A DNA stretch of 58,547 bases, from NCBI GenBank assembly GCA_027568095.1, contig GCA_027568095.1_4956.1. One strand, given 5' to 3'. The notes beneath the pieces were generated by a model. That model worked only from the letters and a program-made list of their open reading frames with translations. It made no database searches and was not told the DNA's origin. Positions 1,410 through 52,655 of this stretch are shown here, piece by piece (positions within the stretch are counted from its first letter, which is position 1; the number at the start of each line of letters is the position of its first letter). The position numbers and the translations under genes are program-made. The DNA is from a phage.

Positions 1410-1616
1410 ATGTTCAGATACGTTTTAAAATTACTCGCCATCATTGTAACCTGGCTAATCATACAATCCGGGTATGACCTTCGTGTTCGTAACCAATGCT
1501 CAGACTATCAACGCATTACACGAACTGCGACAATCTACAGTCACGGTATTTGTTACGCCGCAGATAGTGACGGTCAGTTTAAAATAATTCTTGACGGTTT
1601 ACACATTATCAGATAG
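1410..1616 (+). CDS. small membrane protein (68 aa)
   Basis: CAGGAG RBS 8 nt upstream of ATG 1410; N-terminal hydrophobic helix. Confidence 0.45.
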   Translation: MFRYVLKLLAIIVTWLIIQSGYDLRVRNQCSDYQRITRTATIYSHGICYAADSDGQFKIILDGLHIIR

Positions 1617-3826: not shown

Positions 3827-4462
3827 TTATTTAAGTGCCTTCTGATACAGTTGCGCGATGTCGTCGATAGTTGCACCTTCAGGAACACTCTGAACCACGT
3901 TTCCAACCACACCAGACAATTCCACACGGTCGATACTGTTCCCGGTGATCTTATCCAGTTGTTCAGACGCTTTTGCACGAGTTTTCGGGTCGAACAGTTC
4001 ACGTGTCACCAGAATGTATCCGCCCAGCATGTAACGTTTGTAGCAAACTACGTACTGTTGCAGATGACTGGGGATATCGTCGGTACTGTTCACCCACAGG
4101 TGTTTCGCTTCTGTGTCGTCTTCACCAGGAACGATTACGCGCTGACAATACGGTTCCAGTAATTCTTCAGCAGTGCTTGCTGCTCGTTTCCACCACTCGA
4201 CACGACTCGTTAACGATTCCCCGACAGACTCAAGCGCATGACTTCCCATCGCGTCCAGATAGTTCAACACCTTCGTATTCGACAGGAGACGGTGCGCGGT
4301 CGTTGCAGCCGCTGCGTCAGATGTGTGACCCGGATAAGCCTCTAAAACGCATCGCGTATTGCTGAACCCGTTATTGACACGATCTAACCACAGGTTGGCG
4401 AATTTGAGCTGTTCCGGCGACAACTCCAGAGCAGCCCTTTTAGCCCGGTCTGAAATTTTCAT
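3827..4462 (-). CDS. terminase small subunit-like protein (Terminase_2-type HTH motif)
   Basis: LSPEQLKFANLWL...GFSNTRCVLEAYPGHTSDAAAATTAHRLLSNTKVLNYL resembles the TerS HTH pattern; GGAG RBS 8 nt upstream of ATG 4462. Confidence 0.45.
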   Translation of the reverse strand: MKISDRAKRAALELSPEQLKFANLWLDRVNNGFSNTRCVLEAYPGHTSDAAAATTAHRLLSNTKVLNYLDAMGSHALESVGESLTSRVEWWKRAASTAEELLEPYCQRVIVPGEDDTEAKHLWVNSTDDIPSHLQQYVVCYKRYMLGGYILVTRELFDPKTRAKASEQLDKITGNSIDRVELSGVVGNVVQSVPEGATIDDIAQLYQKALK

Positions 4463-4960
4463 AAATTTGTCTCCCATAAATTTTAAATTAGTTTCCCACA
4501 GATACCCACGGGTTGTCTACACGCCCTGTTTTACAGCTAATACGATGTTAGTATTAAGTTTATAACCTGTCATGGTTTATAAACACATAATCCCAACAAT
4601 TTCAAAGACTTGCATAAAAACATAGATTACAATAGGTATCTCCCAGACTTTTATTTTAGCTCTATTTACAGCTTACACTACTCTAGTATTATCTCTATCT
4701 TTCTATACTACTTCTTATTTATATCTATGTTTTCTATGTTATCTATAAAAAGATAATAAAAAGAATAAGATAGAGAGGGGTTGGTTAAAAAATAAACATG
4801 ACGAAATCTATACCAATCTATGATTTTGATACTATGACAGGATTAACTGTAACACTAATACTATCATAGTGTTCTATCTTAGTATTAGCAGTTTGCGAGC
4901 AATCCTATGATAGTCAGTCGTTCTACCATAGGACTAGCTGTAACACTATGACAGGATTAC

Positions 4961-4988
4961 TTGCATAGCTCTCACCCCGTGGTAAAAT
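4961..4988 (+). promoter_or_regulatory. sigma70-like promoter for 5008 gene (TTGCAT-16-TAAAAT, TG-extended)
   Basis: -35 TTGCAT 4961-4966, -10 TAAAAT 4983-4988, then AAGGAGGG RBS and ATG 5008. Confidence 0.5.
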
Positions 4989-5007
4989 AAAAGAAAAGGA
5001 GGGTGAA

Positions 5008-5775
5008 ATGAAAAAGAATATTTTTAAAGAATTTGCTGATGCAATGGGTAGTTTACGCGAGGCTGTTGATTATCTTGCTAAACACGACGTTAAAATTTCA
5101 GTTGGTCGTTATAATGAATGGATGGCTGGCAAGCAGTACCCACTGGCTACCACGCTTAACGTCATCATGAAAAAACTTGGGTTACCGAATCTGGACCCGG
5201 TGATTGATGTTGGTGAGGTTGTTCTTAAACGCACAATACCAGTTACCGAACTGCGTCAGAAATTACCACACAGACGTTTTGCTAATAACTACTGGCAACG
5301 TGTCAGATACGTTGATTCACAGATCCTGGAAGCTGTTCACGGTCACGACGTGTGGACACGGTTTGAGGCGATGTGCGGTAATTTTGAATGTGCAAGATAC
5401 GTGTTACGCAGGAATTTAAACAAACACACAATTACTGACAGTTGGATTCAGAATGGTTTGCGCCGGGGCTGGATCCCGGAATGTGTAAACGTAATGGTCG
5501 ATTTGCTTGAAAAATACGAAGGCACTGGGACACCGTTTAACGTGATGGTTTGTGAACCACCTGTAGCACGAGTGGAACCACCTGTAGCACGAGTGGAAGC
5601 ACCTGTAGCACGAGTGGAAGCACCTGTAGCACGAGTGGAAGCACCTGTAGTCGATGTCAGCGATTTGAAGGAGAAAATCAGACTGTATGCGTTATCACAC
5701 AATCCTCATTGCGATGTAGATAATATGCCGGATGATGTTGTTTTGATGATGTATAAAGATATGATGGGCCAATGA
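5008..5775 (+). CDS. hypothetical protein with in-frame PVARVE tandem repeats
   Basis: Strong RBS; 21-bp repeat x about 4.6 encodes (E)PPVARVE units. Confidence 0.5.
   Translation: MKKNIFKEFADAMGSLREAVDYLAKHDVKISVGRYNEWMAGKQYPLATTLNVIMKKLGLPNLDPVIDVGEVVLKRTIPVTELRQKLPHRRFANNYWQRVRYVDSQILEAVHGHDVWTRFEAMCGNFECARYVLRRNLNKHTITDSWIQNGLRRGWIPECVNVMVDLLEKYEGTGTPFNVMVCEPPVARVEPPVARVEAPVARVEAPVARVEAPVVDVSDLKEKIRLYALSHNPHCDVDNMPDDVVLMMYKDMMGQ
5554..5655 (+). repeat. 21-bp tandem repeat (gaa[c/g]cacctgtagcacgagtg) x about 4.6, in-frame coding
   Basis: Direct inspection of 5554-5655. Confidence 0.8.
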
Positions 5776-9746: not shown

Positions 9747-9775
9747 ATTATCGGGGAGGGTTGGCAATCTGTCAA
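9747..9775 (-). promoter_or_regulatory. conserved-family promoter (TTGACA-17-GATAAT) for ParB-like gene
   Basis: Reverse complement of 9770-9788 is AAAATAATTCTTGACA; -10 GATAAT at 9752..9747; overlaps stop of upstream gene. Confidence 0.5.
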
Positions 9776-9778
9776 GAA

Positions 9779-10141
9779 TTATTTTAAGAAGTTGGTCAGC
9801 GGTTCGAAACGTTTTATACAATCAGCAGGTACATAATCAGTGATTGACTCCCACGAAAAACGACCGGGTTTATGTTGTAAATTAGTAGCGTTTATAACAG
9901 CAACACACCATTCATCAACAGAACCACGATAACCCATTATTGATATAGCCTCAACAGGATTAAAGGTAATGAACACGGGGTGGAAACCGTATAAATTATC
10001 ATAACCACAGGAACGGATGGGAACACCTAACCCACGTTGAAAATCAAGATCACCACGAAGAAGTTTTATCCCCGGTACGATACCTTTCATCAGGATACTT
10101 TCACGGTTTTCCACTTTAGTAATATGATACGCATCAACCAT
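9779..10141 (-). CDS. hypothetical protein (120 aa)
   Basis: ORF start overlaps stop of upstream SLOG-like gene. Confidence 0.45.
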   Translation of the reverse strand: MVDAYHITKVENRESILMKGIVPGIKLLRGDLDFQRGLGVPIRSCGYDNLYGFHPVFITFNPVEAISIMGYRGSVDEWCVAVINATNLQHKPGRFSWESITDYVPADCIKRFEPLTNFLK

Positions 10142-12322: not shown

Positions 12323-12352
12323 ACTATAGCGCACACATCTGTAATTCGTCAA
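12323..12352 (-). promoter_or_regulatory. conserved-family promoter (TTGACG-18-TATAGT)
   Basis: Reverse complement of 12347-12365 is AAAATAATTCTTGACG. Confidence 0.5.
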
Positions 12353-12381
12353 GAATTATTTTACACATCCTTGTGCAATGA

Positions 12382-14736
12382 CTAACCGTTACTCGCAGGT
12401 GGGAAAGGCACTACATTAGCTGTTGACTGAAAAGGGAGAAGACGAATACCCCTGAAACCGTTTAGTCGAACGTTATTTATATTAACAACGTCTTTTTTCA
12501 CTTTACCACGAAGTGTGGATTTAAATGCCCGACTAAATGAAGTTTTAGTCATTGCTGGACCACCTTCCTGTGTTTTCCAGAGACGATAACGACCATATAG
12601 TTCTTCAGTGTGCACCTCACCATCAGATACCAATTCGCAACAATCTCTGATAAAACTTCTAAGTGGTGATTGTTGATCCATAATTTCCTGACGTTCTTCC
12701 AGACTTGCTTTTGGTTCAGTAAACCGTCCGTTAGCACGTAACCGTTGCAAACCTTCAATCGCCCAGTTACAGATCCCAGGTAGTTCTTTCATCAGTCGTG
12801 CTTCCAGAGTGGTGTCTTCACGACCCAGGAACGAAACGTTGAATGGCAGGATCAGCAAACGGTTAGCCATTGCACCGGAATCATCAGCAAATGCCGGGAT
12901 GTTGTTAGCAGCCAGTGTCATACGTCCCGGTAAACGACCGTTCCACGCACCTTTATACTTACGATTAACCGGAATCGCATCACAACCTGTAATAGATTTG
13001 AAACGGTCCAGAATTCGGTTGCGATCAGGCCCGGACACACTGTGAGCATCACCAATAAACAGCACAGATTTATCCAGCACAGTTTCAAGTACCGCATCAC
13101 TTGCTAAACCCTCCAGTGTGATCCCTGCATATGCTTCGTCACCTACCAGTGCCTGAATAATACGACCGATCGTACCTTTACCGGAACGTGGCGCACCAAT
13201 CAACAGCATCGCTTTCTGATAGTCATACGAGTTGACAAGCATATAACCCAGCCATTCCTGCAACAGTGCAATACGTTCCTGATCACCTTCCAGAGTTGTA
13301 TTAAGAAACTGTTCAAATGCTGGCGCACGGGCAAACGGATCGTAGCTATACGGTAAAATACTGGTCGTAAAGAAATCCGGGTTATGTGCATCACATTTGC
13401 CCGTGTGTACATCCAGTATTCCGTTCTGACAAACAATATAGTGTGATACATCAACGCCGGGCCATGTTCCAAGCTCACGATCAGCCCGTGTGAATAAATA
13501 CGACAATACCTTGTACGTACCATTGATCACGTCAGCTTTTGGTTCGCTGGCAAGCATTGCCATAGAAATTTGATGTTTCAGTTCATCTTCACTGACACGT
13601 TCCCACACGCGACCGTTGAACCGGTACGGCTGTTGCTGGACGAAAATCAATGTGTTGTTCGGATAATAATTATTAACGAACGTGGATGCGTTAACCGTGT
13701 GGTTTGAACCATATGCACCTTCACCGGGTTTCACACTCATGTACGCAGGTGTTCCACCATTAGGAACGATTGTAGGCGCTGGTGTGACTGCTTTCATCAG
13801 TTCTGGTGTCAGCGTCGGTTGACTACGATAAACCGTATCACAACGTTCCACAGCGCCCAGAATTGTGTTTTCACGGTAATCCTGACGATCTGTCCATTTA
13901 CCACGAACCAGTCCGGAACGGTTAAATAGACGTTCAATACGTTCGCAATCTTTCCCGGTCCAGAAAGCAAGGTGTGAGCACAGAGCAGCATCAGCGGCAG
14001 ATGCATTGTAGTCTTTTCCCTGGTCGCTGGGATATGACACAGACAGGCGTTCAACGTTTGCATTCCACAGATCCGCAAATGACGCTTTATTACCAAATAC
14101 TGAAGCAGCACTGGACGAATTTAACGCCATTTTAATCAGTTCATCATCGTCTGCCGGGCCTGACCAGTCATCACAGGGTGCTGTTGTCCAGCGTGCGGAA
14201 CGGTCTGAACGGATACGACCATACCGGGCAATAGAATCATGAATGCCCTGGGTATAATCAATATCAACATCACCATTACCCGTGAGCGTCATCGCGACGA
14301 AACGATCACGCCAGTACATTTCCAGCCCGGTTTTCTGGTCGTTCAGACTGTTAAAACCTTCCGGTATGCTGGTATAAGCACAGATGATATGCAAACCTGT
14401 TCCTGACTGACTGACTTCAGTGTAAGCATTTGGGAAACGGTTTACGAATTCATGCGCCAGTGGTGACCATGTAGCTGTTGCCTGATCTACCAGACAGTTA
14501 TCAACATCAATAAAGAAATAAGGATCGTTTTCTGTGAATACAAAACCAACACCAGACATACCGTACATTTGTGCCATACCTAACGCGGTGTGATAGTCAG
14601 ACCAGTCGTTAGGGTTAGTGGTACTGGCTTTATAACCGTGTACCGGGCTATATGGTACTTTCGTTGGTTTTGGACGATCGGCGACTGTCTCAAGTCGCCA
14701 CATGACCCACTGTTTACGGTTCAGTAACCCTTTCAT
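12382..14736 (-). CDS. DNA primase/helicase (primase-like N-terminus + P-loop NTPase helicase)
   Basis: 784 aa; Walker A GAPRSGKGT; GGAGCG RBS. Confidence 0.65.
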   Translation of the reverse strand: MKGLLNRKQWVMWRLETVADRPKPTKVPYSPVHGYKASTTNPNDWSDYHTALGMAQMYGMSGVGFVFTENDPYFFIDVDNCLVDQATATWSPLAHEFVNRFPNAYTEVSQSGTGLHIICAYTSIPEGFNSLNDQKTGLEMYWRDRFVAMTLTGNGDVDIDYTQGIHDSIARYGRIRSDRSARWTTAPCDDWSGPADDDELIKMALNSSSAASVFGNKASFADLWNANVERLSVSYPSDQGKDYNASAADAALCSHLAFWTGKDCERIERLFNRSGLVRGKWTDRQDYRENTILGAVERCDTVYRSQPTLTPELMKAVTPAPTIVPNGGTPAYMSVKPGEGAYGSNHTVNASTFVNNYYPNNTLIFVQQQPYRFNGRVWERVSEDELKHQISMAMLASEPKADVINGTYKVLSYLFTRADRELGTWPGVDVSHYIVCQNGILDVHTGKCDAHNPDFFTTSILPYSYDPFARAPAFEQFLNTTLEGDQERIALLQEWLGYMLVNSYDYQKAMLLIGAPRSGKGTIGRIIQALVGDEAYAGITLEGLASDAVLETVLDKSVLFIGDAHSVSGPDRNRILDRFKSITGCDAIPVNRKYKGAWNGRLPGRMTLAANNIPAFADDSGAMANRLLILPFNVSFLGREDTTLEARLMKELPGICNWAIEGLQRLRANGRFTEPKASLEERQEIMDQQSPLRSFIRDCCELVSDGEVHTEELYGRYRLWKTQEGGPAMTKTSFSRAFKSTLRGKVKKDVVNINNVRLNGFRGIRLLPFQSTANVVPFPPASNG

Positions 14737-15945: not shown

Positions 15946-17613
15946 TCAGATTAATGAACTTGCAACCCTTGCAGCGAGTTCATTAGCTTCACGAGTACGT
16001 AACCCCTGAGCACTAAGTACATCAACACCAAACACCCTGTAAAACATCTTGTAAGCGTCATCAACGGGTATACCTTTGTCACGCTGAATACCGGCCCATG
16101 TGGTAATCATGCTACGTAATTTACGCTGTGCATCGTTCATTGCCTGAATGTTTTTCATTGCACTGTAAGCTGCAACAGGGGGTGCACCAGCGTTTAACAT
16201 TTGTTCTTTTACCGCAACAGGATCACGGTCGATTATCACAACTGCCCGGCGTAATTCTTCCAGTTCTTCAGGTGTCAGTTCACGTAAATTACCTTCTACA
16301 CGATCCGGGCCTGAGCGTTCGGCTTTTTCAGGAATGTGACCACAATACGGGCAGCACGGAAGACCAGACGGATAAGGCTTCAGACACGGGGGAATACCGT
16401 TATCAGGATCACCCTTGTTTGTGCATGTTGTATTACTGTTCCCACTGCTGTTTGACGAACGACGGTCGCGGTCATCTAAAGACCAGTTGTAGTGCTGATC
16501 GGGAAGTGGAAAACCACGGGCCAGAAATCGACGAACATTACCGACTTTATCAATAATCAGTGCTTTTTTACCGGGTTTGAAACGCAATGGGCGACCCATC
16601 TGTTGTACAAACAAAGAGTAAGATTCAGTGGGACGGTCCATTACTGCACATTCCATTGCCGGGCAATCGTACCCTTCACCGAATAAATCGTTGTTACATA
16701 GCACGAGTGTTTTACGTCGTTCAAAACGTTCCAGAATATCTGCTCGTTCCTGATTGCTGTTTCGCGAACTGATCGCTTCTGCAGGAATGCCAGCATCGCG
16801 AAATTCTTGTGCAAGTGCTTCAGCAGAATCCACATCACACGTAAACACAACAGTGAGCAAACCGTCTGCATACGTTTTCCACGTACTGACGGTATCACCA
16901 ACGATGTTTGAATCTTCCATCGCTTTTTTTAACGCAGAGGGTTTGTAATCGCCCGTAGTATGAGAAATCATTTCTGCAGTTAATTCCAGGTCTGTTTCAG
17001 CCATAATCAGACGATAATCAGCCAGATGTTGTTGACTGATTAACTCACGCATTGACGGACCAATGATCATCTGATCTGCGTAACCTGACGCATGACGACC
17101 CAAGCCTTTACCGTCAGCACGGATCGGTGTAGCTGTAACACCCAGACCTTTAGCGTTAGGGAATTTTTCCCGGCAGTCTCCCCACTGTGTGCCACGCACC
17201 AAGTGATGCGCTTCGTCGCTGAATACAAGAGACACGTCGTTGTACCATCGTTCGTACTGTTTTGTTCTTAACGTTTGTGAACTGGTAATAACGATGTCAG
17301 CGCCGGGGGAATAGGTACTGTAACCAAGCGTTTTCATCTGCTGATTAGTCGCAAATTTAACAGTGTCTTTTTGCGCTATAAATCTGTGTGCTAACCCCTG
17401 ACGAGCAACAGCCATTGCGATTTGGCTAACCAGTTCTTTACGGTGCGCCTGAATGACTTTTACACCGTCGGATTTTACCAGTTCTGCAAGCGCTCGGGTC
17501 TTTCCTGCACCCGTGGGAAGCACAAGAATCACGTCATTAGCACCGTTCGACCATGCCTGGCGCACGTTGTTAACTGCATCTTGTTGGTAATAACGAAGTG
17601 GTTGTTGACTCAC
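15946..17613 (-). CDS. superfamily 2 DNA helicase (DEAH box) with C-terminal zinc ribbon
   Basis: LPTGAGKT (Walker A), FSDEAHH (motif II), CPYCGH; GTG start with AAGGA RBS. Confidence 0.6.
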   Translation of the reverse strand: MSQQPLRYYQQDAVNNVRQAWSNGANDVILVLPTGAGKTRALAELVKSDGVKVIQAHRKELVSQIAMAVARQGLAHRFIAQKDTVKFATNQQMKTLGYSTYSPGADIVITSSQTLRTKQYERWYNDVSLVFSDEAHHLVRGTQWGDCREKFPNAKGLGVTATPIRADGKGLGRHASGYADQMIIGPSMRELISQQHLADYRLIMAETDLELTAEMISHTTGDYKPSALKKAMEDSNIVGDTVSTWKTYADGLLTVVFTCDVDSAEALAQEFRDAGIPAEAISSRNSNQERADILERFERRKTLVLCNNDLFGEGYDCPAMECAVMDRPTESYSLFVQQMGRPLRFKPGKKALIIDKVGNVRRFLARGFPLPDQHYNWSLDDRDRRSSNSSGNSNTTCTNKGDPDNGIPPCLKPYPSGLPCCPYCGHIPEKAERSGPDRVEGNLRELTPEELEELRRAVVIIDRDPVAVKEQMLNAGAPPVAAYSAMKNIQAMNDAQRKLRSMITTWAGIQRDKGIPVDDAYKMFYRVFGVDVLSAQGLRTREANELAARVASSLI

Positions 17614-17694: not shown

Positions 17695-17727
17695 CTGCAT
17701 CAACGAAAGGCGAGTGTAAAATAATTC

Positions 17728-17756
17728 TTGACAGATTACACAACACCTTTTAAAGT
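17728..17756 (+). promoter_or_regulatory. conserved-family promoter (TTGACA-17-TAAAGT)
   Basis: AAAATAATTCTTGACAGATTACA motif upstream of 17789 gene. Confidence 0.5.
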
Positions 17757-17788: not shown

Positions 17789-18550
17789 ATGTTCGAAGTT
17801 AAATTACTTGTAACTGCTCCGGGTCTGGAAACTGCGATCAACAATCTGGCAAATGCTATTGCGACTGGTGCAGCACCGCTCATGGCTGCACAGGGCGACG
17901 GTATCACTAAAGAAATCGTTTCTGTCGTTGCTGAATCACTGCCTGTTGTATCTGCAACAACTGAAGATATTGATGATAACGAAACCAGCACTGAAGAGTT
18001 CGACAAATGGGGTCTGCGTCACGATCCGCGTATCCACACTGACAGTAAATCTCTGAACAAAGGTGATGGTCTGTGGCGTCAAAAGAAAAAACTGGATGAA
18101 GCGTTTGTTGACGGTGTTAAACGTGAACTTATTGCTGAAGCAGTTGAAGCAGGGCGTTATACCGGACCTGCAGAACTTGCACCGGGTTATGTAGCACCTG
18201 TTGATCCTGCTCCAGCGGTTCCTGCCGCTCCGGTAGCTCCAGTTGTACCAGCAGCACCGGCTGTACCAGTCGAGCAACCTGTAACCACGGATCCGGCTAA
18301 AGTTTATAACACCCAGGTTCTTCAGTCAGCACTGATGCAGATGTTTGGACAAATTACGGGTGAACGTGCCGCGCCACTAAGTCAGCGGATCATGGGACTG
18401 TATGAAACTCAGAACGTGATGCAGATTGATGACCCGGTAAAACTGAAGTCTATCATCGAACTGATTGAACGTATTAACGCTACCCCAGCATCTGCTGAAG
18501 ATATTGTCGGTCAGGCTGAATCTGTTAAACAAATGGGTGGAGCATTCTGA
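17789..18550 (+). CDS. hypothetical protein with Pro/Ala/Val-rich linker
   Basis: GAGGAA RBS upstream of ATG 17789; first gene of plus replication block. Confidence 0.5.
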   Translation: MFEVKLLVTAPGLETAINNLANAIATGAAPLMAAQGDGITKEIVSVVAESLPVVSATTEDIDDNETSTEEFDKWGLRHDPRIHTDSKSLNKGDGLWRQKKKLDEAFVDGVKRELIAEAVEAGRYTGPAELAPGYVAPVDPAPAVPAAPVAPVVPAAPAVPVEQPVTTDPAKVYNTQVLQSALMQMFGQITGERAAPLSQRIMGLYETQNVMQIDDPVKLKSIIELIERINATPASAEDIVGQAESVKQMGGAF

Positions 18551-19695
18551 TGACCAGTCACGCTACCTTTAGTGCCAGTGGATCAAAACGTTGGTTAGCT
18601 TGTCCGGGTAGCGTTCAACTGTCACAGCGGATTGACTATGTAGAACCATCATCACCCAGTGCTGAAGAAGGTACAGCCGGACACTGGGTGTTAGAACAGA
18701 AGATTAAAGGCAAACCGCCATTAATGCCGTGTCTTGCTCCTAACGGTGTTCAGGTTACTGAAGACATGCATATTTACGCGGATGACTTTATAGCAGATGT
18801 TCTTTCAGTTGGTGCGAAACTTGATCCGCTGTTTTCAGAAGTTCGCATTCACATTGACTGGTTGTTACCCGGTCAGTACGGAACCTGTGATTATCGCTGG
18901 TATGACTTTAATACTGATACGCTTTATGTATGGGATTATAAATACGGTCATGTTGCAGTTGAAGCAGTTGATAATTCACAGGGGGTCTATTACGCACTGG
19001 ACCAACGTTGCATCGACACCGTTAAGCGCGTTGTGTTCACAATTGTTCAGCCACGGGCTTATCACCCACTCGGACCTGTAAGACGATGGGAGTTTAACCG
19101 GGCAACATTGATGGAATGGGCTGAACGATTTAAACACGGGTTTAACGAAGCACATAAACCAGACGCACCGTTAAATGTTGGTAGTCATTGTCATTACTGT
19201 CCGGCGCGTGGTATGTGTCCGGCGATGTATGAGAGGATTTTAGAATTGGCTACTGTTCTTGATGCACCACCATCACTTACGCCAGAAGAAGTAGCGCGTC
19301 GTCTGGCACTTCTTGAAGAACTGTATACGCGTTCTTCTGAAGCAAAAACAGCGTTACATACTCAGGGGTTACATTTCGTACGTATGGGTAAAGCTTTACC
19401 GGGTTTTAAACTTGCAACAAAGCAAACCAGACGTCAGCTTACGGACGAAGGAAAACTGATCGGTGCTGCACCTATGTTTGGTGTAAACCCTGAAACATTG
19501 TACGAACGTAAATTAAAACCATTGTTAACACTGGAAAAATCACTGCCTCCGGCACTTGTTGACATGTGTACGACAAAACCAGAAGGTCAGCCAGTTTTAG
19601 TACCTGACAGTGACCCGCGTAAAGGTCATAGCACACTGGCAGAATCTGTTTTTAATAAACCCGTGACGATGCCGACTGGCGCACGTCCACTTTAA
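18550..19695 (+). CDS. PD-(D/E)xK nuclease with C-terminal Cys cluster (Cas4/RecB-like)
   Basis: 381 aa; N-terminal WLACPGS and C-terminal HCHYCPARGMCPAMY cysteine cluster. Confidence 0.5.
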   Translation: MTSHATFSASGSKRWLACPGSVQLSQRIDYVEPSSPSAEEGTAGHWVLEQKIKGKPPLMPCLAPNGVQVTEDMHIYADDFIADVLSVGAKLDPLFSEVRIHIDWLLPGQYGTCDYRWYDFNTDTLYVWDYKYGHVAVEAVDNSQGVYYALDQRCIDTVKRVVFTIVQPRAYHPLGPVRRWEFNRATLMEWAERFKHGFNEAHKPDAPLNVGSHCHYCPARGMCPAMYERILELATVLDAPPSLTPEEVARRLALLEELYTRSSEAKTALHTQGLHFVRMGKALPGFKLATKQTRRQLTDEGKLIGAAPMFGVNPETLYERKLKPLLTLEKSLPPALVDMCTTKPEGQPVLVPDSDPRKGHSTLAESVFNKPVTMPTGARPL

Positions 19696-19710
19696 AAGAA
19701 GGTTAATAAC

Positions 19711-20610
19711 ATGGCACAGAAAGAATCTTTTGTAACTCCGGTTGGTCGTCTGGTTGGCGGTTCTTTTTTCGATATCAACACTCATGACCACGAAAATAAA
19801 CCGTTAGCACCTGAAAAACACAACTGGTGGGTTGGTCTGGCGTTTCCTAAAACAGCGGCGAACTGGTGGGAAGAACAAGGTGAACTGGGTGCGGTATTCC
19901 AGGCGATCATGCGAGCGGCTAACTCACACTATGTGAACGGCGAACCACAACAACCCACTTTCGCATGGAAAATTATTAATGGTGACGATCCGAAACATGC
20001 GAGTAAAACTGGTTATGCTGGTCACTGGGTAATTGGTTTCTCACGCAACGTGGCTATTGACGCGTGTCCGGTTTATAACGCAGCGTACCAGCTAGTTATT
20101 GATAAAAATCTGGCGAAAAAAGGTTATTATTACCGTATCAGCGGATCATCTGTTGCAAACGGTCGTACAGGTAATCAGGCTGGTGTGTATATCAACATGG
20201 AAATGGCGCAATTGCTTTATGCAGGTGAAGAAATCATTTCCGGTCCGGCTCCTGCTTCTGTGTTCGGTGCTGCTCCTGCAATGCCTGAAGGCGCACGTCC
20301 GATCGGCGTAACACCAGCGGCAGCACCTGTAGCAGCACCTGTAGCAGCGGCAGCACCTGTAGCAGCGCCTACACCAGCGGCAGCACCTGTAGCAGCGGCA
20401 GCACCTGTAGCAGCGCCTACACCAGCGGCAGCACCTGTAGCAGCGCCTACACCAGCGGCAGCACCTGTGAAGGTAATGACTGAAAAAGCAGGTGGTGCTA
20501 CTTACGAACAGTTTATTGCGCAAGGTTGGAACGATGAACAACTGATCGCTAATGGTTATATGGTAATGACCACCCCGGCCCCGAATTTTCTCAACGGTAA
20601 CGGTTACTGA
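19711..20610 (+). CDS. possible ssDNA-binding-like protein with PA-rich repeat linker and C-terminal FIAxGWND motif
   Basis: Follows the nuclease gene; (AAPVAAPTPA)n repeats then YEQFIAQGWNDEQLIANGY; SSB assignment is inference. Confidence 0.4.
   Translation: MAQKESFVTPVGRLVGGSFFDINTHDHENKPLAPEKHNWWVGLAFPKTAANWWEEQGELGAVFQAIMRAANSHYVNGEPQQPTFAWKIINGDDPKHASKTGYAGHWVIGFSRNVAIDACPVYNAAYQLVIDKNLAKKGYYYRISGSSVANGRTGNQAGVYINMEMAQLLYAGEEIISGPAPASVFGAAPAMPEGARPIGVTPAAAPVAAPVAAAAPVAAPTPAAAPVAAAAPVAAPTPAAAPVAAPTPAAAPVKVMTEKAGGATYEQFIAQGWNDEQLIANGYMVMTTPAPNFLNGNGY
20311..20468 (+). repeat. imperfect 27-30-bp tandem repeats (core gcagcacctgtagcagc), in-frame
   Basis: Direct inspection; core occurs about 7 times. 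Confidence 0.7.
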
Positions 20611-20690
20611 TAGTTACTGGAACTGGGACGACATACCGCTTTAAACAGACATGGGGTCATAGTGCCCCATTTACTTATCAGGGTTTTATT

Positions 20691-22547
20691 ATGTCAGATG
20701 CTTACGTTCACGATATTGAAAACTATCCTAATGTTTTTCTGTTCGGTGCTATTCACGCGTTAACTGAAACACCTTATATTTTTGAGATTTCACATCGTCG
20801 CGATGATCGTCAGGCTTTTTACTTATTCACGGAATATTTGCGTGAACATCGTGCTGAAGAAGTTGGTTATAACAATCTGGGTTACGACTATCCTGTTCAG
20901 CATTCTATTTTGAACAACATCATGTATATCACCAATGCAGACATTTATAAAAAAGGTGATTCGATAATTAACGCTGGTGATGAAAATCGTTTTGCTCATA
21001 TGGTGTGGGAAAAAGACTGGATAGTTCCCCAGCTTGATTTGTATAAAATTCATCATTTCGACAATCAGGCAAAACGAACAAGTCTGAAAACACTTGAATT
21101 CAATATGAGAATGGAAAACATTGAAGACCTCCCATTTACGCCAGGGACTTACTTAACCGATTCTCAAATTGATACGCTTCGTCAATATCTGATACACGAT
21201 TTGAAAGCGACTTTGATGTTTTATAAACACAGTAAAAAGCTGATCGATTTTCGTCGTGAACTTTCTGCTAAATACGGTCGTAATTTCATGAACCATAATG
21301 ACACGAAAATCGGTAAAGACTATTTCATTATGGAACTTGAAAAATCAGGTATTCAATGTTTCGAACCAGGTAGCAGAAAACCACGACAGACGCACAGACT
21401 ATCAATCGCATTGAACAGTGTGATTTTCCCTTATGTCCGTTTTGAACAGCCTGAATTTAATCGTGTTCTTAACTGGTTACGTCAACAGGTCATCACTGAA
21501 ACAAAAGGTGTATTCACAGATTTAAGCGCAGACATTAACGGGTTCTCGTTTGATTTTGGTACGGGTGGTATCCACGGGTCTATTGAGTCTCAAACTATCA
21601 GGTCCACTGAAAATTATGTGATCATCGATCTGGATGTAGCCAGTTTTTATCCAAACCTTGCAATTAGTAATGAACTTTACCCTGCACATTTGGGAAAACA
21701 ATTTTGCACCATTTATAAAAATGTTTACGACATGCGTTCCAGTTACCCGAAAGGTACACCAGAAAACGCAATGTTAAAACTGGCGTTAAACGGTGTGTAT
21801 GGTGACAGTAATAACGTATACAGTCCGTTCTATGATCCTGCTTACACAATGGCCATTACGATTAACGGACAGTTACTTTTGTGTATGTTGGCAGAAGAAC
21901 TTCTGAAAATCCCTGGTTTATCCATGATCCAGGCTAACACAGATGGTCTTACAGTTTACGTACCACGAGTATTTACCGGACAAGTAGAACAGGTTCGTCA
22001 CACGTGGGAAAAATTAACCAGACTCCAGCTTGAAGAAGCGATTTATGACGTGATGTTTATTCGCGACGTAAATAACTACATCGCTGTTTACGAAGGTGGT
22101 AAGAAAGTTAAACGTAAAGGTGCTTATTGTCACAGTGTTGATCTGGGTTGGCATCAAAACCACAGTATGCAGGTTGTTGCAAAAGCGGCTGAGGCAGCAC
22201 TGGTACACAATAAAGATATTCGTGATTTTATAACATCACACGAAGATATTCACGATTTCATGTTAGTGACGAAAGTACCGCGTAACAGTAAATTACTATG
22301 GGGTGATAAACAGGTTCAAAACATCACTCGTTATTATGTCAGTACAGATGGTGCACCGTTGACAAAAGTCATGCCACCACTGGCAAAATCACTGAAACTG
22401 AACCCTGACGCGCCTGAACGCCGTATGTCAGTGTGCAAAGGTTGGTTGACCACGGAGTGTAACGACATGAAACGTTTTAACCGGGCAACGCTAAATTATG
22501 ATTTTTATATCAAAGAAGCTGAAAAACTCGTTGCACCACTTCGGTAA
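20691..22547 (+). CDS. DNA polymerase, family B-like with N-terminal 3'-5' exonuclease motifs
   Basis: 618 aa; Exo I HDIEN, Exo III YLIHD; DLDVASFYPN (motif A-like), KLALNGVYG (motif B-like), NTDGL (motif C-like). Confidence 0.55.
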   Translation: MSDAYVHDIENYPNVFLFGAIHALTETPYIFEISHRRDDRQAFYLFTEYLREHRAEEVGYNNLGYDYPVQHSILNNIMYITNADIYKKGDSIINAGDENRFAHMVWEKDWIVPQLDLYKIHHFDNQAKRTSLKTLEFNMRMENIEDLPFTPGTYLTDSQIDTLRQYLIHDLKATLMFYKHSKKLIDFRRELSAKYGRNFMNHNDTKIGKDYFIMELEKSGIQCFEPGSRKPRQTHRLSIALNSVIFPYVRFEQPEFNRVLNWLRQQVITETKGVFTDLSADINGFSFDFGTGGIHGSIESQTIRSTENYVIIDLDVASFYPNLAISNELYPAHLGKQFCTIYKNVYDMRSSYPKGTPENAMLKLALNGVYGDSNNVYSPFYDPAYTMAITINGQLLLCMLAEELLKIPGLSMIQANTDGLTVYVPRVFTGQVEQVRHTWEKLTRLQLEEAIYDVMFIRDVNNYIAVYEGGKKVKRKGAYCHSVDLGWHQNHSMQVVAKAAEAALVHNKDIRDFITSHEDIHDFMLVTKVPRNSKLLWGDKQVQNITRYYVSTDGAPLTKVMPPLAKSLKLNPDAPERRMSVCKGWLTTECNDMKRFNRATLNYDFYIKEAEKLVAPLR

Positions 22548-43583: not shown

Positions 43584-43613
43584 ACAATCAACCCTTCTTG
43601 TTTTCTTAACCAC

Positions 43614-43642
43614 AGGGTAGTTGTGTCGGTGTAATCCGTCAA
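43614..43642 (-). promoter_or_regulatory. conserved-family promoter (TTGACG-17-TACCCT)
   Basis: Reverse complement of 43637-43655 is AAAATAATTCTTGACG. Confidence 0.5.
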
Positions 43643-43941
43643 GAATTATTTTACGTATAGATTCATGGGAAGTATGCGACTCCCTATACCTTTTAAACCT
43701 CTCCTACTTGCAGCAACTTTTACTACTTATACTACTCTTCTGTTTATCTATGTTTATTATGTTTTCTATAAAAAGAATAAGATAGAGAGGGGTTGGTTAA
43801 AAAATAAACATGACGAAATCTATGAATTTATGATCTACTAATACAGATTCAGTATTAGCTGTAACTCAAAATCATGAAACCCATGTAAAACCATGTACAG
43901 TTAGTACACGTTCTGTATTAGCTGTATCTTTAAAATAATTC

Positions 43942-43970
43942 TTGACGGATTACAGACGGTAGGGTATCTT
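43942..43970 (+). promoter_or_regulatory. conserved-family promoter (TTGACG-17-TATCTT)
   Basis: TAAAATAATTCTTGACGGATTACA upstream of 44017 gene. Confidence 0.5.
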
Positions 43971-44016
43971 TATCTCGGGAAGCGGCAATGGGTCGCTGGT
44001 GAATGAGGATGTGAAA

Positions 44017-44400
44017 ATGGGAATGTATACCGAATTAGTGTTGAAGTGTCAGATTAAAGCAGATGCACCTGTGGATGTGAAAGCTATTATTGCACACATG
44101 TTCTGTGGTGAAAAAGAACCAGAGAAACTACCACAACATAAGTTTTTCAGTCTTCCCAGATGGAATTTTATTGGTAGTTGTAGCAGTTTTTATCATCACC
44201 CGGAAGTAATAAATAGTTGTCCTAAATTTGATTACACCGATACTCAATATATTTTTAGTCGTAGTGATATTAAAAATTATGATAGTGAAATTGAACAATT
44301 TATCGACTGGTTGAAACCATATGTTGATGCTGAAGATGGTACATGCATTGGTTGGACTTGGTATGAAGAAGACTTACAACCAACATTAATCATTAAATAA
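44017..44400 (+). CDS. hypothetical protein (127 aa), accessory island
   Basis: GAGGA RBS 7 nt upstream of ATG 44017; AT-rich coding sequence. Confidence 0.45.
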   Translation: MGMYTELVLKCQIKADAPVDVKAIIAHMFCGEKEPEKLPQHKFFSLPRWNFIGSCSSFYHHPEVINSCPKFDYTDTQYIFSRSDIKNYDSEIEQFIDWLKPYVDAEDGTCIGWTWYEEDLQPTLIIK

Positions 44401-44415
44401 CTCCGAGACACTAAA

Positions 44416-44796
44416 ATGAAGAAACTGATTCTATGCGCAATGTTAACAACCCTGACAGCCTGTGATAACGCTGCTGATGTTGCCAGTCGTAACGTTGCAA
44501 CCGCTGCAGCTAACTTTGAAGTAAATCGTCGTATCGTTTTCTATAACGTTCGTAACGGTGAGTATCTTTTGTCTATCGAAGGTCGTTGTGCCCGTGAGAA
44601 CACTAGCAAAGAGATCGAAATCACCTGTAAAACTGGTCCGAATGACGTTAAGAAACACTTTATGGGGTTAACCACGGAGGTAACTTATTTCATTGAACAA
44701 ACAGACCCTTCACCAACAGATCAGTATCGTTATCGTGTTACGTTTAACCCGATGCAAATTCTCCCGGATCTAAATATCCGTCACCCTGGGGAATAA
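44416..44796 (+). CDS. lipoprotein (signal peptide with lipobox LTAC)
   Basis: MKKLILCAMLTTLTAC N-terminus. Confidence 0.55.
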   Translation: MKKLILCAMLTTLTACDNAADVASRNVATAAANFEVNRRIVFYNVRNGEYLLSIEGRCARENTSKEIEITCKTGPNDVKKHFMGLTTEVTYFIEQTDPSPTDQYRYRVTFNPMQILPDLNIRHPGE

Positions 44797-44799
44797 CCC

Positions 44800-44901
44800 A
44801 TGGGTAAAAAGAAAAACGGTGAACTGGCGAAGAACTTCACACGTCTGGAAACCAACATCAAAATGTCTTATTGTCCGTTCTGCGGGGAGAAACAGGAATG
44901 A
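44800..44901 (+). CDS. small protein (33 aa) with CPFCG motif
   Basis: GGGGA RBS 8 nt upstream; below track cutoff. Confidence 0.3.
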   Translation: MGKKKNGELAKNFTRLETNIKMSYCPFCGEKQE

Positions 44902-45047
44902 CCATTGATAAGCGTAAAAAACGGCGTGCACATAGAAAAGCCGCTAAAAATCTTTTGAAAAATGGCGGTTTGTTTAACGGTTTTAGTGCCCCCGGTTCAA
45001 CGTTCTTCTGCATTGCTCAATGGCACTTAAAACAGTCGCGTGTTTAA
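44898..45047 (+). CDS. small basic protein (49 aa)
   Basis: ATGA overlap with upstream small ORF. Confidence 0.3.
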   Translation: MTIDKRKKRRAHRKAAKNLLKNGGLFNGFSAPGSTFFCIAQWHLKQSRV

Positions 45048-45068
45048 ACCAGAACAGGAGTAACAGCT

Positions 45069-45299: not shown

Positions 45300-45375
45300 C
45301 CCAATGAACCTATATCTTGCTTGACCACTTAACCTCCTGTTGCTAATATTGAGTTAAACAACAGGAGGTTTTATT

Positions 45376-50430: not shown

Positions 50431-50433
50431 TTC

Positions 50434-52573: not shown

Positions 52574-52655
52574 GTTCTACAGGCTCCATACGGTTTACGG
52601 TTCTTAACGTATGTTATATCAGTGATGGTTTTTTTGCACGGTGTTAAAATAATTC

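What the first reader, a model, noticed from the sequence alone, without database searches (positions are those of the whole stretch)
4478..5007. AT-rich divergent control region with iteron-like repeats and one copy of a 54-bp element that recurs 39 kb away
The region between the TerS-like gene (minus) and the 5008 gene (plus) is the most AT-rich stretch of the window. It contains direct repeats of ACTATGACAGGATTA (4831-4845, 4945-4959) and CTGTAACACTA (4847-4857, 4938-4948), short palindromes (ctatcatag / cctatgatag), and a block at about 4756-4812 (...AAAAAGAATAAGATAGAGAGGGGTTGGTTAAAAAATAAACATGACGAAATCTAT) that is essentially identical to 43767-43823 in the other divergent intergenic region. 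A near-perfect duplicate at two divergent regions implies selection: candidate origin of replication, pac/packaging-recognition site next to TerS, a shared regulatory protein-binding site or a small RNA. The ATG within the element does not start a conserved ORF (the downstream frames differ at the two loci).
Basis: seen in the sequence. Interest (0 to 1): 0.55.

Follow-up and report, generated by a model that had tools for sequence, protein, structure and literature searches.

The report
Twin origin-like elements in a phage
A roughly 110-bp, very easily melted DNA element flanked by arrays of protein-binding-type repeats occurs twice in this 9NA-like phage genome and in all its relatives, and it most likely marks two replication origins, which nobody has mapped for this phage group.

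Summary
4756-4811 and 43768-43823 are 56 bp of exact identity, and weaker homology extends to about 110-130 bp.

The window is a complete-looking 9NA-like siphophage (Sashavirus/Nonanavirus). Every relative examined carries the element at the same two loci:
- R1 lies between TerS and a 255-aa gene.
- R2 lies between the SPP1-gp7-like head gene island and the scaffold/capsid operon.

The element consists of a pyrimidine-rich tract with 9-bp CTAT repeats followed by a purine-rich A-tract block. Its two copies are the two least stable duplex segments of the whole genome, here and in two relatives, and rank first and second-to-fourth in 9NA.

Arrays of 15-26 bp dyad repeats flank the element: about 6-8 at R1 and always 2 at R2. 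At R1 their sequence changes together with the N-terminal Cro/XRE-like HTH domain of the adjacent gene (five types).

I found no support for an RNA gene, a conserved ORF or a sigma-70 promoter in the element.

Best reading (about 0.45): iteron plus DNA-unwinding-element origins, organised like SPP1 oriL/oriR and lambda ori, with the 255-aa protein as origin binder and autoregulator. The main rival is a purely transcriptional operator region. Nothing here is experimentally shown.

The parts
3827..4477 (-). Small terminase gene; left neighbour of R1.
   Evidence: phrog_51 terminase small subunit, E 3.7e-11. Annotated TerS in Bas82, Sasha and Solent.
4530..4563 (+). Left dyad repeat 1: TTTACAGC-TAATAC-GATGTTA-GTATTA. 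Conserved in all Sasha-like phages; lies just upstream of the TerS leader.
   Evidence: Perfect match to TAATAC-N7-GTATTA. Direct-repeat family D2. Same site in Sasha, BDX09P1 and 536P12.
4665..4698 (+). Left dyad repeat 2: TTTACAGC-TTACAC-TACTCTA-GTATTA. Same orientation as repeat 1, opposite to the sites right of the element.
   Evidence: 74% identical to 4530-4563.
4650..4745 (+). Pyrimidine-rich tract (28% purine, 76% AT) ending in 9-bp CTAT repeats (TCTATGTTT TCTATGTTA TCTAT, 4724-4746). This is the part of the element conserved deepest in the phage group.
   Evidence: 9NA, Klebsiella-phage and metagenome relatives keep TATCTATAC x2-3 at this position.
4746..4781 (+). Purine-rich A-tract block TAAAAAGATAATAAAAAGAATAAGATAGAGAGGGGT (83% purine). 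The highest-purine 50-bp window of the genome starts at 4747.
   Evidence: A-tracts start 11 bp apart, and the R2 copy differs by exactly one 11-bp unit.
4690..4825 (+). R1 copy of the conserved element (candidate DNA unwinding element). It contains the least stable duplex of the genome (4714-4773).
   Evidence: Nearest-neighbour stability ranks first at 40, 60 and 100 bp. 96-98% identical in BDX09P1, 536P12, Bas82 and Sasha.
4756..4811 (+). Exact 56-bp repeat, copy 1. Its right end is where homology to Bas82, 536P12 and Sasha-type genomes stops.
   Evidence: Homology break at 4811.
4827..4959 (.). Iteron-like array right of the element. Six copies of a 15-bp unit TAAT(C/A)CTAT(G/C)ATAGT in both orientations, some with a (T)AGCTGTAA flank. 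Lineage-specific: it is replaced by other repeat types in Sasha/Bas82, 9NA, Klebsiella phages and L017.
   Evidence: Relatives.
4961..4988 (+). Promoter-like site for gene 5008 (TTGCAT-16 nt-TAAAAT). The last iteron abuts its -35. Read by eye; below the scan tool's threshold.
   Evidence: Sequence. Equivalent TTGCAC-17-TATGAT in Bas82 and Sasha. Not listed.
5008..5775 (+). Candidate origin-binding and autoregulatory protein (255 aa). Made of a variable N-terminal Cro/XRE-like HTH domain (1-60), a conserved helical middle domain (79-170), a disordered EPPVARV repeat linker, and a conserved C-terminal two-helix domain.
   Evidence: phrog_25538, unknown function. No Pfam family. Found only in 9NA-like phages. 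AF2 model. Best local fold matches are XRE-family HTH domains, not significant. Weak profile hits to multi-HTH_3 proteins. Five N-terminal types.
5542..5667 (+). 21-bp tandem repeats encoding the flexible linker of the 255-aa protein. Copy number varies between phages.
   Evidence: D2; translations.
43630..43654 (-). Copy of the genome-wide consensus promoter, reading leftwards into the head operon. Left border of R2.
   Evidence: family D8.
43713..43837 (+). R2 copy of the conserved element. Contains the second least stable duplex of the genome (43720-43785).
   Evidence: R2 copies in Bas82, BDX09P1, 536P12, 9NA, Sasha, VLCpiS10a and IMG/VR contigs.
43768..43823 (+). Exact 56-bp repeat, copy 2.
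43839..43871 (+). R2 iteron 1: TAATAC-AGATTCA-GTATTA-GCTGTAAC.
43902..43934 (+). R2 iteron 2: TAGTAC-ACGTTCT-GTATTA-GCTGTATC. Lies 63 bp after iteron 1 and ends at the UP-like tract of the plus-strand promoter.
   Evidence: There are two iterons at R2 in every genome examined.
43929..43970 (+). Consensus promoter (TTGACG-17-TATCTT) for the plus-strand gene island 43999-46299. Right border of R2.
   Evidence: (D3).
12382..14736 (-). P4/D5-type primase-helicase (prim-pol + SF3 helicase). An inferred partner of the origin, not part of the element.
   Evidence: Pfam NrS1-1_pol-like_HBD, D5_N, DUF5906. phrog_1829 DNA primase. The 9NA orthologue is annotated 'putative P4 family primase'.

Best explanation
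R1 (about 4530-4990) and R2 (about 43655-43935) are two replication-origin-type sites of this 9NA-like phage.

Each has a conserved core: a pyrimidine-rich tract with 9-bp CTAT repeats running into a purine-rich A-tract block. This core is the most easily melted DNA in the genome and would act as the DNA unwinding element.

The dyad repeats next to the core are iterons. At R1 they are bound by the product of the adjacent gene 5008-5775 through its variable N-terminal Cro/XRE-type HTH domain. The conserved middle and C-terminal parts, tethered by a flexible linker, would contact the conserved replication machinery (P4-type primase-helicase, DEXD helicase, T7-like polymerase and gp2.5-like SSB).

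The iterons that abut the promoter of gene 5008 would also give autoregulation. Both cores sit between divergent transcription units, so negative supercoiling from divergent transcription would help opening.

R2 has two iterons and lies inside the late region. It would be a second origin or a fork-arrest site, as oriR is in SPP1.

Shown here:
- the anatomy
- its conservation across the group
- the stability minima
- the co-variation of repeat type with HTH type

Inferred:
- that the protein binds the repeats
- that the core melts
- that replication starts there
For: 1. Duplex stability. The two copies are the first and second least stable duplex segments at 40 and 60 bp in the window; at 100 bp R1 is first and R2 third, behind 45762 in the endonuclease gene. 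They rank first and second at 40, 60 and 100 bp in the complete genomes of BDX09P1 and 536P12. In 9NA, R2 ranks first and R1 second to fourth.

2. Repeat arrays beside the core. In the window, 7 of 10 genome-wide dyad matches fall in R1 or R2, and 0 of 100 shuffles reached 10. In 9NA, 9 of 15 matches to its own dyad fall in R1 or R2. Relatives have arrays of 3-7 copies.

3. Co-variation. Five repeat types go with five N-terminal domain types of the adjacent protein: window/BDX09P1; Sasha/Bas82/536P12; 9NA/L015; L017; Klebsiella phages. The exchanged segment runs from the end of the element (4811) to about codon 66 of the gene. So repeats and DNA-binding domain travel as one unit between conserved flanks.

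4. The N-terminal domain looks like an XRE HTH. Local fold matches give DdrO NTD prob 0.97, rmsd 2.4 over 57 columns. The profile hits HTH_3 repeat proteins at E 4e-5 to 1e-4.

5. Conservation at both loci across Salmonella, E. coli and Klebsiella phages, always with two iterons at R2.

6. No coding or RNA signal.

7. Precedents.
- SPP1 has two origins of the same build (direct repeats + AT-rich DUE). One is in the initiator gene. The other interrupts the late genes between gene 7 and the scaffold genes, together with moron genes (PMC6316719, sections 3.5 and 3.7). R2 lies between the SPP1-gp7-like gene 46289-47248 and the head operon.
- Lambda ori has four 18-bp dyad iterons followed by a purine-rich AT block. 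Two iterons plus the AT-rich tract suffice for unwinding (PMC7466680).

8. The genome encodes a full replisome but no recognisable initiator or helicase loader.
Against: - There are no experimental data for any 9NA-like phage origin.
- I could not read Zeng et al. 2019 (J Virol 93:e00848-19), which may describe these repeats or place pac here.
- The 255-aa protein has no detectable homology to lambda O, SPP1 G38P or any Pfam family. The HTH assignment rests on non-significant fold matches and weak profile hits.
- Repeats and HTH domain are physically adjacent, so their co-variation could be simple linkage.
- In Sasha, and partly in Bas82 and 536P12, the R2 repeats are of a different type from the R1-right repeats. 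One protein binding both loci is therefore not a given there.
- A DUE need not be 95% conserved in sequence. The conservation suggests a bound factor that I cannot name.
- AT-rich divergent promoter regions with operator arrays are common without being origins.
- GC skew follows gene orientation and is uninformative.
- P4-type primase-helicases often recognise their origin themselves.
Confidence: 0.45

Rival explanations
1. Purely transcriptional control regions. The 255-aa protein is a Cro/CI-like regulator and the dyad repeats are its operators. Through them it would autoregulate, and control TerS, the head operon and the 43999 gene island. The conserved AT-rich core would be a curved or easily untwisted spacer, or a platform for a host nucleoid protein, tuning two divergent promoters.
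For: - XRE-like HTH domain.
- The last R1 repeat abuts the -35 of the gene-5008 promoter.
- In 9NA, a repeat sits in the TerS leader.
- In the window, a dyad is centred about 57 bp upstream of the inferred TerS start, and TerS lacks the consensus promoter.
- R2 iteron 2 ends at the UP-like tract of the plus promoter.
- A-tracts are phased at 11 bp.
Against: - Six to eight tandem sites spread over 130-250 bp is more than operators usually need.
- The sites occur only where the conserved core occurs, not at the other eight consensus promoters.
- The core has no conserved sigma-70 promoter in either direction, yet it is better conserved than the promoters' own flanks.
- The core's status as the global stability minimum in four genomes is not explained.
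- This reading is not exclusive of the origin reading, since initiators commonly autoregulate.
Confidence: 0.25
2. Packaging site. R1 is the pac region recognised by TerS, with the repeats as TerS binding sites flanking a cleavage zone, as in P1 pac or SPP1 pacL/pacC/pacR.
For: - R1 is directly upstream of TerS.
- 9NA uses pac-directed headful packaging (PMC4153490).
- From my memory of the abstract of Zeng et al. 2019, initiation cuts are spread over about 170 bp.
- Repeat-flanked cores are typical of pac sites (own knowledge of P1 and SPP1).
- The left dyad 4530-4563 is conserved along with TerS in all Sasha-like phages.
Against: - The element and its repeats occur twice per genome, and R2 is far from any terminase gene. 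[quoted passage not shown]
- The R1-right repeats vary while TerS stays 88-95% identical.
- In well-studied headful phages, pac usually lies inside the TerS gene (own knowledge).
Confidence: 0.08
3. Recombination linker or cassette boundary. The conserved core matters mainly as a stretch of shared sequence at which 9NA-like phages exchange the modules to its right (iterons plus HTH domain at R1; moron genes at R2). Alternatively it is an attachment-type site for such cassettes.
For: - Homology between genomes breaks exactly at the right end of the element at both loci.
- The two copies are identical in the window but differ at 2-5 positions in relatives, implying gene conversion between them.
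- The R2 module carries a VG64/RDF-like gene and an endonuclease.
Against: - A breakpoint at the edge of any conserved block is expected whatever the block does.
- This reading explains neither the stability minima, nor the CTAT repeats conserved down to the Klebsiella phages, nor the iterons.
- No integrase or recombinase is encoded next to either copy.
Confidence: 0.1
4. A gene product: either a small RNA transcribed across the element, or a small hydrophobic peptide encoded by the pyrimidine-rich tract (for example 43665-43841, 58 aa; Bas82_0032).
For: - Open frames cover the tract in many copies and would give a membrane-helix-plus-basic-tail peptide.
- One such ORF is annotated in Bas82.
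Against: - No Rfam family.
- Fold z-scores are -0.32 (plus strand) and -1.49 (minus strand).
- No terminator.
- The ORF frame differs between R1 and R2 of the window. No Shine-Dalgarno sequence is present.
- No ORF of at least 25 codons in 9NA R2 or Klebsiella R1.
- Several frames are open at once, as expected for T/C-rich DNA.
- The three substitutions seen among R1 copies are all non-synonymous.
Confidence: 0.05

Closest known systems
Bacillus phage SPP1 oriL / oriR with origin-binding protein G38P
   Same: - Two distant sites of the same build (repeats plus AT-rich DUE) in a pac-type siphophage.
- One site is at the initiator gene.
- The other interrupts the virion-assembly genes between gene 7 and the scaffold/capsid genes, together with a few moron genes (PMC6316719).
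- R1 and R2 sit at the corresponding places.
   Different: - No sequence similarity of DNA or protein. The 255-aa protein matches no Pfam family.
- SPP1 oriL is inside gene 38; here R1 is upstream of the gene.
- SPP1 uses a DnaB-type helicase plus loader and the host polymerase. This phage has a P4-type primase-helicase and its own polymerase.
Phage lambda ori with O protein
   Same: - An array of about 18-19-bp dyad-symmetric iterons next to an AT-rich block of about 40 bp that is purine-rich on one strand.
- In lambdoid phages, type-specific iterons go with the type-specific DNA-binding part of the initiator (own knowledge).
- In lambda, two iterons plus the AT tract suffice for unwinding, and origin activity depends on nearby transcription (PMC7466680).
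   Different: - Lambda has one origin, and it is inside the O gene.
- Lambda iterons are all direct. Here the repeats occur in both orientations and on both sides of the core.
- No homology to O.
Satellite phage P4 ori plus crr with the alpha primase-helicase (own knowledge; not checked in a paper here)
   Same: - Two separated cis sites carrying the same short repeats are both needed for replication.
- The replication protein is a P4/D5-type primase-helicase, the family found here at 12382-14736.
   Different: - In P4 the primase-helicase itself binds the repeats, and there is no separate HTH protein.
- No sequence similarity of the sites.
SaPI origins and T7 primary origin (own knowledge)
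   Same: - SaPI ori: two sets of island-specific iterons flank an AT-rich region that melts.
- T7: promoters next to an AT-rich tract, in a phage with a gp2.5-type SSB and family-A polymerase like this one.
   Different: - SaPI iterons are bound by the Rep helicase.
- The T7 origin is fired by phage RNA polymerase and has no iterons.

Membership tests
Iteron-type phage origin (lambda ori class) | Array of repeated binding sites for an initiator | tested here: met
   Six 15-bp units at 4831-4959, plus dyads at 4530, 4665, 43839 and 43902. Clustering is beyond chance. This is a sequence-level test only.
Iteron-type phage origin (lambda ori class) | Adjacent AT-rich DNA unwinding element | tested here: met
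   The cores are the first and second least stable duplexes at 40 and 60 bp in the window (first and third at 100 bp) and at all three sizes in two relatives, and rank first and second-to-fourth in 9NA. Actual melting was not tested.
Iteron-type phage origin (lambda ori class) | Initiator homologous to lambda O, P22 gp18 or another known initiator family | tested here: not met
   No Pfam-A family at E<=0.01 for the 255-aa protein. There are only 14 relatives among 1.8 billion representatives, none with an initiator domain.
Iteron-type phage origin (lambda ori class) | Initiator binds the iterons and replication starts there | not testable with these tools
   Needs EMSA or footprinting and marker-frequency or 2D-gel mapping.
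SPP1-type dual origin (oriL/oriR) | Two distant sites of the same organisation (repeats + DUE) | tested here: met
   R1 and R2 share the core and flanking dyads. Both are present in all relatives examined.
SPP1-type dual origin (oriL/oriR) | One site at the initiator gene, the other in the late region between the gene-7 homologue and the scaffold/capsid genes | tested here: met
   R1 is next to gene 5008. R2 is between 46289-47248 (head morphogenesis, SPP1 gp7-like) and the head operon. SPP1 layout from PMC6316719.
SPP1-type dual origin (oriL/oriR) | G38P-type replisome organiser, DnaB-type helicase and loader | tested here: not met
   None found. The helicases present are P4/D5-type and DEXD-type.
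pac site | Single recognition site per genome next to or within the terminase genes | tested here: not met
   The element and its dyads occur twice, and R2 is not near a terminase gene. This concerns the shared element only.
pac site | Virion DNA ends enriched at the site | not testable with these tools
   No read data.
Small regulatory RNA | Match to a described family, or a stable conserved structure with promoter and terminator | tested here: not met
   Rfam gathering search gave 0 hits. Fold z-scores are -0.32 and -1.49. No terminator in R1.
Cro/C1 (XRE) helix-turn-helix domain, for residues 1-60 of the 255-aa protein | Sequence or fold match to HTH_3-type domains | tested here: inconclusive
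   No Pfam hit. Top local Foldseek matches are XRE HTH domains, but with E about 1. The profile hits multi-HTH_3 proteins at E 4e-5 to 1e-4 over query positions 24-53. The motif VKISVGRYNEWMAGKQYP resembles the usual helix 2-turn-helix 3 pattern (by eye).

The most novel reading that the evidence does not exclude
The 9NA-like phages use a two-tier, two-site origin system that has not been described.

Tier one is a new family of initiators: a double helical domain with an exchangeable XRE-type HTH, a variable-length EPPVAR linker, and a small C-terminal docking domain. It reads lineage-specific iterons.

Tier two is the invariant CTAT 9-mers of the core, read by the conserved P4-type primase-helicase.

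The R1/R2 pair would cooperate, either by looping or by origin plus programmed fork arrest, to switch from theta replication to concatemer replication. Specificity modules would be swapped between phages by recombination at the core.
Probability: 0.15. Interest if true: 0.6.

Novelty: new variant of a known kind. Interest (0 to 1): 0.42.

Why it matters
Casjens et al. [quoted passage not shown] I found no origin or initiator assigned to them in the literature I could search.

The finding gives two precise, small, testable DNA targets and one candidate protein. If the reading is right, four things follow:
- It adds a new initiator family with an XRE-type reading head.
- It gives a second example, in Gram-negative hosts, of the SPP1-style pair of origins.
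- It explains a hotspot of mosaicism.
- It gives a cloned-origin handle, either for Per-type interference (origin-carrying plasmids that inhibit the phage) or for engineering phages that are already used in therapy and biocontrol collections.

If the reading is wrong and the site is only regulatory, it still defines the operator set of the main phage-specific regulator.

Tried and rejected
- **Rfam**, whole window: no family. tRNA/tmRNA scan: none.
- **RNA folding** of 4645-4830 on both strands: no better than shuffles.
- **Sigma-70 and terminator scans** of both regions: numbers as in shuffles, and no promoter inside the core conserved between R1 and R2. A promoter-looking stretch at 4611-4645 (TTGCAT...GATTACA...TAGGTATCT) resembles the consensus promoter, but its spacing is wrong by about 4-9 nt. 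I did not count it.
- **Coding test** of the pyrimidine tract: rejected.
- **DnaA box and IHF consensus**, by eye: no convincing match.
- **Comparison of the 255-aa protein with the first gene right of R2** (43999-44400): unrelated.
- **Pfam and PHROGs** for the 255-aa protein: no function. Foldseek against the PDB: nothing significant. Exhaustive profile search: only 14 relatives.
- **Plasmid collection search** with the element: no match.
- **IMG/VR pattern scan**: only further Sasha-like phages plus one chance hit, L020.
- **GC skew**: the cumulative maximum is near R1 and the minimum is at R2, but this tracks gene orientation, so I did not use it.
- **Literature**: Zeng et al. 2019 could not be opened. 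Papers citing it gave no pac coordinate. No paper linking 9NA-like phages with origins or iterons was found. The P4 ori/crr search was unproductive.
Full report
**What the window is.**
The 58,547-bp window is a 9NA-like siphophage genome. The finding region and its flanks match Sashavirus BDX09P1, Escherichia phage KarinMuster (Bas82), Sasha, Sergei, Solent, PJ16, AVIO78A and PDP46 at 85-95% identity.

The left neighbour is the small terminase gene (3827-4477, minus strand). The right neighbour is a 255-aa gene of unknown function (5008-5775, plus strand). After that gene comes the minus-strand replication module, followed by three plus-strand replication genes:
- P4/D5-type primase-helicase, 12382-14736
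- DEXD helicase, 15946-17613
- exonuclease (18550-19695), gp2.5-like SSB and family-A polymerase, on the plus strand at 18550-22547

The late genes on the minus strand are interrupted by plus-strand islands of small genes. Several of these islands are headed by copies of one consensus promoter, TTTAAAATAATTCTTGACGGATTACA; there are ten copies in all, seven on the plus strand and three on the minus strand.

**Check of the observation.**
The long repeat is real: 56 bp are identical at 4756-4811 and 43768-43823, with a chance expectation of about 1e-24. Similarity continues leftwards through an 11-bp and a 1-bp indel, so each copy is about 110-130 bp.

By GC content the region is second to the endonuclease gene 45376-46299. 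By nearest-neighbour duplex stability, the two element copies are the two weakest 40- and 60-bp windows of the whole window. I call the finding region R1 and the 43.6-44.0 kb region R2.

**Anatomy of the element.**
On the plus strand, each copy has three parts:
- 90-96 bp of pyrimidine-rich DNA (27-28% purine), ending in 9-bp repeats (TCTATGTTT TCTATGTTA TCTAT)
- an abrupt switch to a purine-rich A-tract block (83-88% purine; AAAAAGATAATAAAAAGAATAAGATAGAGAGGGG)
- a last segment, TTGGTTAAAAAATAAACATGACGAAATCTAT

The A-tracts start 11 bp apart. The R2 copy of this phage has lost exactly one 11-bp unit.

**Anatomy of the flanks.**
Dyad repeats flank the core. The motif TAATAC-N7-GTATTA, often extended by GCTGTAA, has ten matches with up to two mismatches in the window. 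Seven of them lie in R1 (4538, 4673, 4827, 4856, 4941) or R2 (43839, 43902). The expectation is 3.6, and no shuffle reached ten.

Sites left of the core carry the TTACAGC extension on their left. Sites right of the core carry GCTGTAA on their right. They therefore face the core from both sides.

Between 4831 and 4959, a 15-bp unit TAAT(C/A)CTAT(G/C)ATAGT occurs six times in both orientations. The last one abuts the probable promoter of gene 5008.

In R2 the core sits between two divergent copies of the consensus promoter (43630-43654 on the minus strand, 43929-43970 on the plus strand). It is followed by exactly two dyads 63 bp apart.

**Relatives.**
Both loci carry the element in Bas82, BDX09P1 and 536P12, Sasha and 9NA. 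The two multi-hit IMG/VR contigs also carry both.

Klebsiella 9NA-like phages have it at R1 and R2. Two metagenomic relatives have it at R1.

The CTAT 9-mers and the A-rich block are the part kept at the greatest distance. The copies within one genome are close but usually not identical, with 2-5 differences in Bas82, BDX09P1 and 536P12. The perfect identity in this window therefore looks like recent gene conversion on top of selection.

The stability result generalises:
- In BDX09P1 and 536P12 the two copies rank first and second at 40, 60 and 100 bp.
- In 9NA, R2 ranks first and R1 ranks second to fourth.

R2 has two dyads in every genome.

**The neighbouring protein.**
Gene 5008-5775 belongs to a family found only in these phages. 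There are 23 phage records, 12 clusters among 5.8 billion proteins, and 14 representatives among 1.8 billion. It has no Pfam family and only an unannotated PHROG.

The AlphaFold model (mean pLDDT 66.5) shows four parts:
- a confident four-helix N-terminal domain, residues 1-60
- a helical middle domain, residues 79-170
- a disordered linker made of EPPVARV repeats
- a two-helix C-terminal domain

The best local structural matches of the model are XRE/Cro-type HTH domains (DdrO, ClgR, TP901-1 CI, C-proteins), but none is significant. The family profile weakly hits proteins made of HTH_3 repeats over positions 24-53.

The N-terminal domain comes in at least five types that are 29-43% identical to the window's. 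The rest of the protein is conserved.

**Co-variation.**
Each N-terminal type goes with its own repeat type right of the R1 core:

| Phages | Repeat type |
|---|---|
| Window, BDX09P1 | TAATCCTATGATAGT |
| Sasha, Bas82, 536P12, IMG/VR contigs | TAATGC-ACAACGT-GCACTA |
| 9NA, L015 | ATAACAC-N3-GTGTTA |
| L017 | ATAAC-N5/6-TGGTT |
| Klebsiella phages | GTTTCAGCTTACCAG |

Homology between the window and Bas82/Sasha stops at 4811, the end of the element. It resumes near codon 66 of the gene. The repeats and the reading head are thus exchanged as one cassette between two conserved anchors.

This is what one expects if the head reads the repeats. Because the two are adjacent, linkage alone could also give the pattern.

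In 9NA, the Klebsiella phages and this window, R1 and R2 use the same or closely related repeats. In Sasha, and partly in Bas82 and 536P12, they do not. That is a weak point for a one-protein, two-site model.

**What it is not.**
- There is no Rfam family or tRNA.
- RNA folds of either strand are no better than shuffles, and there is no terminator.
- No sigma-70 promoter inside the core is shared by the two copies.
- The T/C-rich tract is open in several frames and yields hydrophobic mini-ORFs, one of which is annotated in Bas82. However, the frame differs between R1 and R2, and there is no ribosome-binding site. The ORF is missing in 9NA R2 and Klebsiella R1, and the few substitutions are non-synonymous.
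- The element has no match in plasmids.

**Most likely mechanism.**
The features are:
- an extreme stability minimum
- a strand-asymmetric AT block
- short tandem repeats inside the block
- arrays of dyad repeats beside it
- a neighbouring DNA-binding protein with a swappable head, a flexible tether and a conserved tail

Together these form the signature of an iteron-type origin with its DNA unwinding element.

Lambda ori has four 18-bp dyad iterons followed by CACAAAAGACACTATTACAAAAGAAAAAAGAAAAGATTATT. Two iterons plus the AT tract suffice for unwinding, and nearby transcription activates the origin (PMC7466680).

SPP1 has two such sites, both bound by G38P. oriL lies in the initiator gene. 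oriR lies in a segment that interrupts the assembly genes after gene 7, together with three moron genes. G38P bound at oriR is thought to stall the fork and trigger the switch to concatemer synthesis (PMC6316719). R1 and R2 occupy the equivalent positions.

I therefore propose the following steps:
- The 255-aa protein binds the repeats.
- It bends or wraps the DNA.
- Helped by the negative supercoiling between divergent transcription units, the core opens.
- The conserved P4-type primase-helicase and the rest of the phage replisome are loaded there.
- The repeats at its own promoter make the protein autoregulatory.

Every step after 'the repeats and the core are there' is inference. I put this reading at about 0.45.

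**Rivals.**
- *Transcription-only reading (0.25).* It explains the promoter-proximal repeats, and in 9NA the repeat inside the TerS leader. It does not explain why repeats occur only with the core, why there are so many, or why the core is the melting minimum in four genomes. It can coexist with the origin reading.
- *Pac role for the shared element (0.08).* This is hard to square with two copies per genome and the single pac fragment of 9NA (PMC4153490). I could not read the paper that maps the 9NA pac region, and pac could still lie in R1-left or inside TerS.
- *Recombination-linker reading (0.10).* It describes a consequence of conservation rather than a function.
- *RNA or peptide product (0.05).* This is disfavoured by the tests above.

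**Comparison with known systems, and novelty.**
The site works like lambda ori and SPP1 oriL/oriR. With its P4-type primase it also recalls P4 ori/crr (own knowledge). It is not a member of any of these families by homology: the protein and the DNA are unrelated to them.

I rate it a new variant of a known kind. It offers a plausible new initiator family and the first candidate origins for a phage group with no replication biology on record. It is unproven and not very surprising to a specialist. Interest: 0.42.

Noticed in passing
window 1578-1615, 17715-17752, 43929-43966, 48637-48674, 50421-50458, 52643-52680, 58181-58218 (+); 9763-9787, 12340-12364, 43630-43654 (-): Ten copies of one strong promoter-like sequence with an UP-like tract (TTTAAAATAATTCTTGACGGATTACA). 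Several head islands of small plus-strand genes that interrupt the late gene cluster. TerS has no copy.
   Followed up: partly
window 5542-5667: 21-bp tandem repeats encode an EPPVARV linker in the 255-aa protein. Copy number varies between phages: four to five here, thirteen in Sasha, none in 9NA.
   Followed up: partly
window 20285-20498: Tandem 12/18/30-bp repeats (GCAGCACCTGTAGCAGCG...) inside the gp2.5-like single-strand-binding protein gene 19711-20610. A weaker relative lies at 18207-18282.
   Followed up: no
window 45376-46299: The most AT-rich stretch of the window is a gene with CapR and T5orf172/MUG113 (GIY-YIG-like) endonuclease domains, in the variable module right of R2. It is probably a mobile or homing endonuclease. 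A VG64/'RDF'-family gene lies next to it at 44416-44796.
   Followed up: partly
window 43839-43857 and 43902-43920; BDX09P1, 536P12, L021, L023, L024: The asymmetric 7-bp centre of the R2 dyads is found in either orientation in different genomes (ACGTTCT or AGAACGT), while the arms TAATAC/GTATTA stay fixed. It looks as if the centre had been flipped by recombination between the arms.
   Followed up: no
window 43765-43770 versus 4746-4766: The R2 copy in this phage lacks one 11-bp unit (ATAAAAAGATA) that every other copy in every relative has. That is a loss of exactly one helical turn between phased A-tracts.
   Followed up: no
window 4610-4756 and 43665-43841; Bas82_0032: The T/C-rich tract gives hydrophobic mini-ORFs (a membrane-like helix plus a KKIIKRIR tail), and one is annotated in Bas82. 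I judged them compositional artefacts. A type-I-toxin-like peptide was not formally excluded.
   Followed up: yes
window 4490-4525 and 43585-43625 (minus-strand leaders): The leaders of TerS and of the head operon share a motif ACCC(G/T)GTGG(G/T)TA just after the -10 region. It is also present in 9NA and Klebsiella relatives (AACCACGGGT on the plus strand). It may belong to the consensus promoter's start region or be a late-leader signal.
   Followed up: no
window 4558-4585: Where BDX09P1, Sasha and Bas82 have a second left dyad (TTACAG-TA(A/G)T(A/G)C-ACAAC(G/A)T-GCACTA), this phage has an unrelated short direct repeat (GTTTATAACCTGTCATGGTTTATAAAC).
   Followed up: no
records KX987158, KY002061, MH586730, OQ955832, MZ726797, PQ783785, KJ802832: Most GenBank records of this phage group are linearised inside R1, within or a few bases from the element. 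As a result, the element and its repeat array are split between the two ends of the record and are easy to overlook.
   Followed up: partly
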